The notes below the pieces were generated by a model that worked only from the letters and a program-made list of their open reading frames with translations, did no database searches and was not told the origin of the DNA. Positions 7,614 to 9,462 of a stretch of 26,106 nt of DNA are shown here, piece by piece (position 1 is the first letter of the stretch; the number at the start of each line of letters is the position of its first letter). The stretch comes from Azolla caroliniana (taxonomy: Eukaryota > Plantae > Polypodiophyta), in the NCBI GenBank assembly GCA_043228905.1, contig JBHGNT010000431.1:1-26106 (forward strand), in the 5' to 3' direction. A program made the position numbers and the translations under genes.

Positions 7614-9462
7614 ATGATGGTCTGCTATGCACCCTCAAGGCTTCTGGCTGCAGTGGTAGTTGCCGTGTTGGCTGTCAGCGAGATCAATGCTGCCGCCATA
7701 ACGTACGGGCACCCGTTGTTTAATGAAAGTCGCCCTCTTGGCTCTGGTCCTGCGGGTCACTCCACTCCCAAGGGAAGTTCGGACCATCCAGCTTCTCAGT
7801 CAAGGGCGGCTAGCAGCACGCCTCCAGGTTACGACGCACTTGCCAGCGCTTTGGCCGAGGCAAAGGCGCTTTCGCCTGACGAGTTTGCCGAGCTCGCCTC
7901 GAGGGTGACTCTCGCCACCGAATGGATGCGGAATCCACCTCGAACTCGATACTGCGGCGTAAAGGTCGTCGCAAACGCCACACGTTCGGCTCAGGAAGCT
8001 GCACTTGTGGCGGCCAAACGGGCAAAGCTCGACACACAGGCCAAGCAAAATGGGCATTCGTTGCATGCGCTCGTCAAGGCCCAAAACTCAAGCGTACCAG
8101 TTGTGTTTCATGTAACGCACGATGGCGATGCTGGGCATCTGTCTGCGACTGACGTGCAGAGACAGATAGACGGGCTTAATGGGGACTGTGAGTGCGGAGG
8201 AGCAGATGATGCCGACTACGCATCTGAAGATGCTCTTTCTTCAGACGCCAGCTTTGGCTTCAGCTTTAACCTGGCAAACATCACGTACAGCAACAATCCC
8301 GACTGGTTTCACGGTGCCACAGCCGGATCCGATCAGCAAGACGAGATGAAGGCCGCTCTTCGTCAGGTGGGTGCCGTCACGCGGCAGAGCACACGTCCAA
8401 TTGGCTGACACCTTTCTCAAGGGCGGCGCTGAGACGCTGAACCTGTACTCCGTCTCCTTTGAGACAGATCCAGGTCTGTTAGGGTGCGTGCGGAAAATTT
8501 TTGTAGGAGACGCCACGTTCTGACATCGTTTCCGATACCGAAAGCTATGCTACGTTTCCAAATGACTACGAGGGCGCTCCATCTGATGATGGCGTTGTGT
8601 TCCTTTACACGACGATCCCCGGTGGATCGGAGACTGGATACAACCTCGGAAAGGTGAGTGCCATCACTAGGTGCCGAACGATGGCTCACTTACCGCCCTG
8701 CTCCACCATCGCAGACTGCAACGCACGAAGTAGGGTAAGTCTTCCTTGTCCGAGCCAAGGATACAGGGGTTTGACTGACGTTTCCGTTCTGCTACCGCAG
8801 ACATTGGCTTGGGTGAGCAACTTCTTGAATTCCATCCACCGCGCGCGCCTACCGTCACTTACGCCCTGGCCTTCTCACAGAGTGAGTTGCTCTGAGCATG
8901 GGAACAGAATTATAGCTGATCACCATCGATTTTCTGCAGCTTTTGCATACATTCCAGGGTGAGTGGCTGACGGAAATCGACTCCTGCACACCTTGCGACG
9001 TATTGATCCGCTATGGCCATCATAGGTGGATGCCTGGGCCAAGGTGACGATGTAAATGACACTCCCCCACAAGCTTCTCCCACGAGCGGCTGTCCTACCT
9101 CGCGTGACAGCTGCCCTGGTGATGGTCTGCAAGATCCAATCCACAAGCAAGTGATATGGATCTTCCCTGCGTCATTCGCGAGCTGATGAGTCTTCGCACC
9201 TTGCACAACAGTTACATGGACTACTCTAGCGACGAATGCCTGTAAGCAATAGAGGTTTTCGAGCGGCAGCATCAAAGCGTCTCACTTACACATCGCCGCG
9301 GATACAGTACTGGATTCACGACTGGACAAGCCGTAAGAATGGTGAGTACTAGAGGATTCGCGCCAGCGTGAAGCGCGCACTCCTGCTAATCGAGACTTGT
9401 CGCTCCGACCGTCCCCCAACGAAATTCAGGCTGCGTTGTCAGGAGAGTTCCGAGGACTCTAG
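7614..9462 (+). CDS. Secreted zinc metalloprotease, family M43 (pappalysin/ulilysin-like metzincin), 12 exons
   Basis: Exons 7614-8187, 8245-8366, 8422-8483, 8545-8653, 8715-8734, 8801-8812, 8881, 8940-8958, 9026-9146, 9212-9241, 9308-9341 and 9430-9462 join in frame. Product has a signal-like N-terminus, VPVVFHV, LLGYATFP, DDGVV, GKTATHEVGHWLGLLHTFQGGC, DTPPQ, RDSCPG, DPIHNYMDYS (Met-turn) and FTTGQAVRM. Confidence 0.93.

What the first reader, a model, noticed from the sequence alone, without database searches (positions are those of the whole stretch)
8813..8939. Apparent single-nucleotide exon inside the catalytic zinc-binding motif of the M43 protease
Seen: ttctcacag|A|gtgagt at 8881, a consensus acceptor and donor separated by one base. 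It splits the gap into two normal-sized introns (8813-8880, 68 nt, branch-like cttac; 8882-8939, 58 nt, branch-like gctgat). The upstream exon ends GG and the next starts CTT TTG CAT. Only GG+A (Gly) gives HEVGHWLG-LLHTFQGGC; skipping it gives GFCIHSR and destroys the motif. Established: HExxHxxGxxH is the metzincin motif, and 1-nt exons are very rare (one reported in Arabidopsis APC11). Inference: ordered sequential splicing is required, and skipping could act as an on/off switch. Gene predictors would miss it.
Basis: partly seen in the sequence, partly recalled or inferred. Interest (0 to 1): 0.85.

Follow-up and report, generated by a model that had tools for sequence, protein, structure and literature searches.

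The report
One-base exon in fungal zinc protease
A fungal gene for a predicted secreted zinc protease keeps its reading frame and zinc-binding site only if a single A between two ordinary short introns is spliced in as its own exon, which is likely real though untested by RNA, and is a new example of something already reported in other fungi and plants.

Summary
Observation confirmed. A8881 lies between a CAG acceptor and a GTGAGT donor and splits the gap into introns of 68 and 58 nt, each with a branch motif. It completes a 12-exon, 378-codon, stop-free M43 (pappalysin-type) metalloprotease in an Exobasidiomycete-like fungus. Only 1 of 481 one-to-three-step splice products keeps HExxHxxGxxH. 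A site this strong arose in 0 of 200,000 simulated 127-nt introns; 18 other introns are 55-88 nt. No RNA run was listed and no ortholog locus was found. Best reading (0.88): a constitutive 1-nt exon, flanking introns removed one after the other in either order. The on/off switch has no support. 1-nt exons are already published: 13 in Coprinopsis, also Cryptococcus, Fusarium CYP621A, plant APC11 and VPS55. This scan has noted several on other fungal DNA. New member of a known kind; interest 0.3.

The parts
7614..8187 (+). Exon 1 (574 nt): start codon, hydrophobic N-terminus (predicted signal peptide), long pro-region with R-Y-C-G (predicted cysteine switch, residue 112), start of catalytic domain
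   Evidence: no Pfam hit below E 0.097; no homolog for 7614-8366
8245..8366 (+). Exon 2 (122 nt)
   Evidence: GT-AG introns of 57 and 55 nt on either side
8422..8483 (+). Exon 3 (62 nt)
8545..8653 (+). Exon 4 (109 nt)
   Evidence: 69% identical to P0001
8715..8734 (+). Exon 5 (20 nt): first His, catalytic Glu; ends in phase 2 of a Gly codon
8801..8812 (+). Exon 6 (12-nt microexon): second zinc His; ends GG, phase 2 of the motif Gly
8813..8880 (+). Intron 6 (68 nt): GTGAGC donor, CTTAC branch motif at 8858, CAG acceptor
8881..8881 (+). Exon 7, the inferred 1-nt exon (A): third base of the Gly codon of HExxHxxGxxH
   Evidence: no RNA evidence
8882..8939 (+). Intron 7 (58 nt): GTGAGT donor, CTGAT branch motif at 8916, CAG acceptor
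8940..8958 (+). Exon 8 (19 nt): third zinc His
9026..9146 (+). Exon 9 (121 nt), followed by a GC-AG intron (9147-9211, GCAAGT donor)
   Evidence: 75% identical to M43 protein P0001
9212..9241 (+). Exon 10 (30 nt): Met-turn (N-Y-M-D-Y)
9308..9341 (+). Exon 11 (34 nt)
9430..9462 (+). Exon 12 to the stop codon (the least certain exon)

Best explanation
[quoted passage not shown] Shown by sequence: consensus splice signals on both sides, two normal-sized introns, and a unique in-frame product. Inferred mechanism: each short intron is recognised across its own length (intron definition). The two cannot be excised at once around a single base, so they are removed one after the other; after the first step the A is simply the edge of a longer exon. 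Either order gives the same mRNA. The exon is kept because losing it shifts the frame, removes the third zinc histidine and the Met-turn, and creates an early stop. The base itself sits at a wobble position and carries no information beyond +1 nt.
For: Only 1 of 481 splice products (nested and stwintron paths included) is in frame, stop-free and keeps HExxH-x5-H; it is reached in both orders. In a wider search, 3 of 13,539 paths keep the motif and all 3 use 8881. The best 120 of 7,769 homologs all have HExxH-x5-H with Gly at position 8 and Leu at 9. An HMM of them scores the model 357.0 bits, against 211.4 for skipping and 210-211 for intron retention. The donor at 8882 scores at the top of 18 other hand-defined introns and the acceptor at 8880 would rank fourth; those introns are 55-88 nt, so 68 and 58 fit and 127 does not. 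Chance of such a site inside a simulated 127-nt intron: 2.1e-3 at the weakest real thresholds, 4.0e-4 at lower-quartile thresholds, 0 of 200,000 at the observed score. The gene also has 20-, 12- and 19-nt exons next to it. The class exists in basidiomycetes: 13 1-nt exons against 65,373 introns in C. cinerea. Intron definition is proposed for fungi, and sequential removal was proposed for APC11.
Against: No transcript and no ortholog locus confirm it. The contig likely carries indel errors: CPSF2 changes frame 5 times in 2,954 exonic nt without introns, once in a G run. At that rate 1.9 errors are expected in this 1,137-nt CDS, and seeing none has probability 0.15. The junction itself holds a G run (8811-8813) and a T run. 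With pessimistic inputs my odds fall to 1.3-3.3:1, and to 0.32:1 when the worst values are mixed inconsistently. The acceptor at 8939 is weak (1.4; real range -1.6 to 8.4). The 120 homologs were selected by score, so their intact motif is partly by selection. The model has Leu at motif position 10 where 120 of 120 homologs have Tyr or Phe; this holds for the usual error variants too.
Confidence: 0.88

Rival explanations
1. Assembly error: the true gene has a single intron of about 127 nt and one exonic base was lost from a short homopolymer at the junction. The inner AG-A-GTGAGT is chance.
For: CPSF2 in the same contig shows 5 frame changes; 4 were located in colinear conserved stretches (about 13890, 14564, 15897, 16334) and at least 3 lie in homopolymer runs. 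An unchecked note says another piece of this assembly looks plant-like, which would fit a thinly covered fungal contig.
Against: It needs an intron of 127 nt when 0 of 18 others exceed 88 nt, and also a near-perfect acceptor, donor and branch motif at a spot that yields two normal introns (4e-4 to 2e-3 by simulation). Central odds favour the exon 51-133:1, using my assumed 3% error chance at the junction, 5% long introns and a 2e-4 prior from C. cinerea. The aldolase gene read through all five joined introns without a frame change.
Confidence: 0.08
2. One intron with a non-canonical or shifted splice site, or a nested twin intron (stwintron), yields the glycine codon without a 1-nt exon.
For: AG at 8881-8882 followed by TGAGTT could rebuild a GT donor in a [D1,2] arrangement; such twin introns are known in fungi (PMC5587772, abstract).
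Against: The [D1,2] path is frameshifted, and no nested GT/GC-AG path other than the 1-nt exon keeps the motif. A one-intron solution would need a TG donor or a CA acceptor.
Confidence: 0.02
3. The gene is a pseudogene with a real one-base deletion at this junction.
For: M43 genes are often multi-copy in fungi (several paralogs per species), so one copy could decay.
Against: The other 377 codons are stop-free, all 11 introns have proper ends, and the Met-turn, Cys-Gly motif and cysteines are kept. It needs the same coincidences as the error model.
Confidence: 0.02

Closest known systems
One-nucleotide exon of Fusarium CYP621A P450 genes (PMC12940212; abstract, introduction, results and start of discussion seen)
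   Same: Fungal gene; a single base between canonical AG and GT; part of a Gly codon in a conserved motif; splits an oversized gap (139 nt there, 127 here) into normal introns; needed for the frame.
   Different: There it is the middle base of Gly in the structural PKG motif, conserved in about 20 orthologs and supported by 18 SRA reads. Here it is the wobble base of the Gly in the catalytic zinc motif, in a basidiomycete, with no reads and no orthologs.
1-nt exons of Coprinopsis cinerea (13 in 13 genes; PMC12230235; passages, section 9 and part 1 of 3 of supplement 1 seen) and Cryptococcus neoformans exons 'as small as 1 bp' (PMC3990503; passages)
   Same: Intron-rich basidiomycetes with short introns and frame-critical microexons.
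   Different: Those come from long-read or RNA-seq annotation. M43 is not in the list of microexon-enriched families in Figure S2B as extracted; the identities of the 13 genes were not seen.
Arabidopsis APC11 and plant VPS55 1-nt exons (PMC4674806, parts 1-2 of 3; PMC8831610, passages)
   Same: A constitutive single A required for the frame; base identity did not matter in APC11; sequential removal proposed.
   Different: Plant genes with a longer gap (422 nt in APC11), tested experimentally. VPS55 has isoforms with and without the exon in some plants, which is precedent for alternative use but not evidence for it here.
Unicellular pappalysins, family M43 (ulilysin, mirolysin; PMC6949598 passages; PDB hits of homolog P0001)
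   Same: HExxHxxGxxH, Met-turn, Cys-Gly motif in the pro-segment; 43-58% identity to 120 PF05572 proteins.
   Different: About 110 residues before the Cys-Gly motif, longer than in the homologs and without sequence matches; the 11-codon zinc motif is spread over four exons.

Membership tests
Spliceosomal 1-nt exon (APC11 / CYP621A type) | Single base flanked by canonical acceptor and donor, each intron with its own branch motif | tested here: met
Spliceosomal 1-nt exon (APC11 / CYP621A type) | Both flanking introns of ordinary length for the organism | tested here: met
   68 and 58 nt against 55-88 nt for 18 other hand-defined introns
Spliceosomal 1-nt exon (APC11 / CYP621A type) | Needed for the frame and for colinearity with homologs | tested here: met
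   1 of 481 products; 357 vs 211 bits
Spliceosomal 1-nt exon (APC11 / CYP621A type) | Base present in spliced cDNA or RNA reads | not testable with these tools
   no RNA holder listed
Spliceosomal 1-nt exon (APC11 / CYP621A type) | Same layout in orthologous genes | tested here: inconclusive
   0 of 118 metagenome loci from the pattern scan were M43 genes
Spliceosomal 1-nt exon (APC11 / CYP621A type) | Genomic sequence at the junction verified | not testable with these tools
   no reads; contig shows frame changes in CPSF2
Unicellular pappalysin (M43, PF05572) | Extended zinc motif HExxHxxGxxH/D | tested here: met
   residues 293-303 of the model, conditional on the 1-nt exon; definition
Unicellular pappalysin (M43, PF05572) | Met-turn downstream of the third His | tested here: met
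   spacing 46 in the model; 45 in 108 and 46 in 10 of 120 homologs
Unicellular pappalysin (M43, PF05572) | Cys-Gly cysteine-switch motif in the pro-segment | tested here: met
   R-Y-C-G at 112; R-x-C-G in 91 of 120 homologs; motif only, latency untested
Unicellular pappalysin (M43, PF05572) | Secretion and zinc-dependent proteolysis | not testable with these tools
   only a hydrophobic N-terminal stretch was seen (Kyte-Doolittle 3.25)
Stwintron (nested spliceosomal twin intron) | Removal of an inner intron creates the splice site of an outer intron and yields the mature frame | tested here: not met
   [D1,2] path frameshifted; no nested path gives the motif without 8881
Recursive (zero-nucleotide) splice site | AG and GT directly adjacent, no base retained (definition recalled) | tested here: not met
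   one base lies between them and the frame needs it
Regulated skipping switch (unproductive splicing) | Condition-dependent skipped isoform with an early stop | not testable with these tools
   skipping would place a stop at 9053, 91 nt before the next junction; no expression data

The most novel reading that the evidence does not exclude
The fungus uses inclusion of this one base as a splicing-level switch for a secreted protease: skipping it, or retaining either flanking intron, removes the third zinc ligand and gives an early stop with three introns downstream, so protease output is set by how efficiently a 1-nt exon in the catalytic motif is included.
Probability: 0.05. Interest if true: 0.65.

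Novelty: new member of a known kind. Interest (0 to 1): 0.3.

Why it matters
If real, it adds a case to the short but growing list of 1-nt exons. It shows that an 11-codon catalytic motif can be cut into four exons of 20, 12, 1 and 19 nt. In practice a gene finder would likely call this protease broken, or an assembly polisher might 'fix' it. Two 58-68 nt introns around a wobble base would make a compact reporter for splicing order, since the base can be changed without changing the protein. It does not point to a new mechanism.

Tried and rejected
RNA evidence: no RNA holder listed for 7500-9500, so no reads were laid; this is no evidence either way. No whole genome is held for this window, so no genome-wide intron statistics or paralog search. 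Ortholog loci: a metagenome scan for exon 8 with its splice ends returned 118 loci; 0 of 118 matched the M43 model by tblastn at E<=1 and most were an unrelated repeat. Homolog search with 7614-8366: 0 of 5,889 candidates scored. Pfam on five single exons: no M43 hit, the pieces being short. No close ortholog protein was found; best identity 58%. Rejected by enumeration: alternative acceptor at 8882, retention of either or both introns, skipping of exon 6, 7 or 8 in the combinations tried, and the [D1,2] stwintron path. Skipping exon 6 alone stays in frame (332 bits) but loses the second His and the motif. No structure was predicted, since single exons would not be informative. Sequence look-up among earlier findings: none. 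My first aldolase translation started in the wrong frame and was redone; my first exon 9 end was one base short and was corrected.

Full report
Observation. The sequence is as described. A8881 follows a CAG acceptor and precedes a GTGAGT donor. The gap between the 12-nt exon 8801-8812 and the 19-nt exon 8940-8958 divides into introns of 68 nt (8813-8880) and 58 nt (8882-8939). Their branch-like adenosines lie 20 and 21 nt from the 3' ends, as in most other introns of the gene, and in both the acceptor is the first AG after the branch motif.

The gene. A 12-exon model from 7614 to 9462 gives 378 codons with no internal stop; ten introns are GT-AG and one is GC-AG (9147-9211). The product has a hydrophobic N-terminus, R-Y-C-G at 112, HExxHxxGxxH at 293-303 and an N-Y-M-D-Y Met-turn, the features given for unicellular pappalysins (PMC6949598, passages). 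Exon 9 alone found a PF05572 protein at 75% identity; that protein matches mirolysin and ulilysin in the PDB and led to 7,769 relatives, of which the best 120 were examined. The model is 43-58% identical to them. The 11-codon zinc motif is spread over exons 5-8 (20, 12, 1 and 19 nt). The neighbouring CPSF2 gene is closest to Tilletiopsis washingtonensis (61%), then Ceraceosorus (49%), Acaromyces (48%), Ustilago maydis (44%) and Tilletia maclaganii (42%) among the six compared, so the organism is likely an Exobasidiomycete-like fungus.

Is the exon needed? All 120 homologs have HExxH-x5-H with Gly at position 8, though they were chosen by score, and mirolysin has Asp there. So spacing and frame are the firm constraints. 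Of 13,539 GT/GC-AG paths between the exon 5 donor and the exon 9 acceptor, 3 are in frame, stop-free and keep the motif; all 3 use 8881, and two need poor GC donors and add residues. A stepwise enumeration that allows newly formed sites gave 481 products, of which 1 keeps the motif, reached with either intron first. An HMM of the 120 homologs scores it 357.0 bits, against 211.4 for skipping, 210-211 for retention and 332.1 for skipping exon 6 only, which loses the motif. Any base after GG gives Gly, so the exon is needed for length, not identity.

Is the site more than chance? I defined 18 other introns by hand (9 in this gene, 4 in CPSF2, 5 in an aldolase); they are 55-88 nt long. Against matrices built from them the 8882 donor scores 10.15 (top of the real range 3.5-10.0), the 8880 acceptor 6.15 (real range -1.6 to 8.4), the 8813 donor 6.35 and the 8939 acceptor a weak 1.4. 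Of 535 AG-N-G[TC] sites in the window, only 8881 passes lower-quartile thresholds with a branch motif. In 200,000 simulated 127-nt introns such a site appeared at a usable position at 2.1e-3 (weakest thresholds), 4.0e-4 (lower quartile) and never at the observed score. The training set is small and hand-made, so these are rough figures.

The main result against. CPSF2 (13717-16921) changes frame five times without an intron. Four changes lie in stretches colinear with the Tilletiopsis protein: about 13890 (one base short, G run), 14564 (one extra, C run), 15897 (one short, T run) and 16334 (one short). The fifth, between 14301 and 14375, was not located. CPSF2 is normally an essential single-copy gene (recalled), so these are likely assembly errors, about 1 per 600 nt; the aldolase showed none across its five joined introns. 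A base lost at the exon 6/exon 8 junction with one 127-nt intron would give the same picture. Weighing the two with 13 1-nt exons per 65,373 introns as prior (C. cinerea) and my own assumptions for the error chance and for long introns gave odds for the exon of 51-133:1 (central), 1.3-3.3:1 (pessimistic), 0.32:1 (worst values mixed inconsistently) and 6,250:1 (optimistic). I settle on 0.88 for the exon and 0.08 for error.

No direct confirmation was possible. No RNA holder was listed, no genome is held, and 0 of 118 loci from a metagenome pattern scan were M43 genes.

Mechanism. Shown: the signals, the lengths and the unique product. Inferred: short fungal introns are recognised by intron definition (proposed in PMC3925392, passages); two spliceosomes are unlikely to act at once on one base, so the introns are removed in turn, as proposed for APC11 (PMC4674806). 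No fixed order follows from the sequence. In plants the upstream intron of a microexon is more often delayed (PMC8831610), which is a lead only. Skipping would put a stop at 9053, 91 nt before the next junction with three introns downstream, and remove the third His and the Met-turn. That makes a switch possible but is what any frame-critical exon would do; skipped exons are 3% of fungal alternative events. I put regulated use at about 0.05.

Comparison and novelty. One-base exons are published for Arabidopsis APC11, plant VPS55, Fusarium CYP621A (also a Gly codon in a conserved motif), Cryptococcus and Coprinopsis. This scan has noted several more in other genomes, mostly fungal (unchecked notes). 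I found no paper joining M43 with microexons, and M43 is not among the enriched families in the extracted Figure S2B of the Coprinopsis paper; its list of 13 genes and parts 2-3 of that supplement were not seen and could include an M43. The stwintron and zero-nucleotide recursive classes were tested and not met. Verdict: a probable new member of a known kind, unverified by RNA, in a contig with indel errors; interest 0.3.

Noticed in passing
window 13717-16921 (+): CPSF2 gene with 4 introns and five frame changes not explained by introns (about 13890, 14301-14375, 14564, 15897, 16334), mostly in homopolymer runs; likely assembly errors, relevant to every frameshift-type finding on this contig.
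   Followed up: yes
window 9147-9211 (+) and 12326-12247 (-): Two GC-AG introns (GCAAGT, GCGAGT donors) among 20 introns defined in the window, a high share for a small sample.
   Followed up: partly
window 13061 to about 11900 (-): Class II aldolase/adducin-type gene (PF00596) with at least five introns, in frame across them; its 3' end was not resolved.
   Followed up: partly
window 7614-7950 (+): The M43 protein has about 110 residues, Ser/Pro/Ala-rich, before the Cys-Gly motif; longer than in the homologs and without database matches.
   Followed up: partly
window about 18270-21930 (-): Ty1/copia-type retrotransposon (gag, zinc knuckle, pol beta-barrel, RVT_2) with frame breaks. The flanks near 17700-17850 and 22400-22530 give the same translated stretch, so a duplicated sequence lies on both sides.
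   Followed up: no
window about 23735-23785 (+): Trinucleotide run that reads as poly-Asn in an ORF.
   Followed up: no
window 10148-11230 (+): Unidentified multi-exon gene downstream of the protease; two ORF pieces had no Pfam hit.
   Followed up: partly
L002, L004-L007 and many other loci: Most pattern hits are copies of one AT-rich repeat family from a few related metagenome records; unrelated to M43.
   Followed up: no
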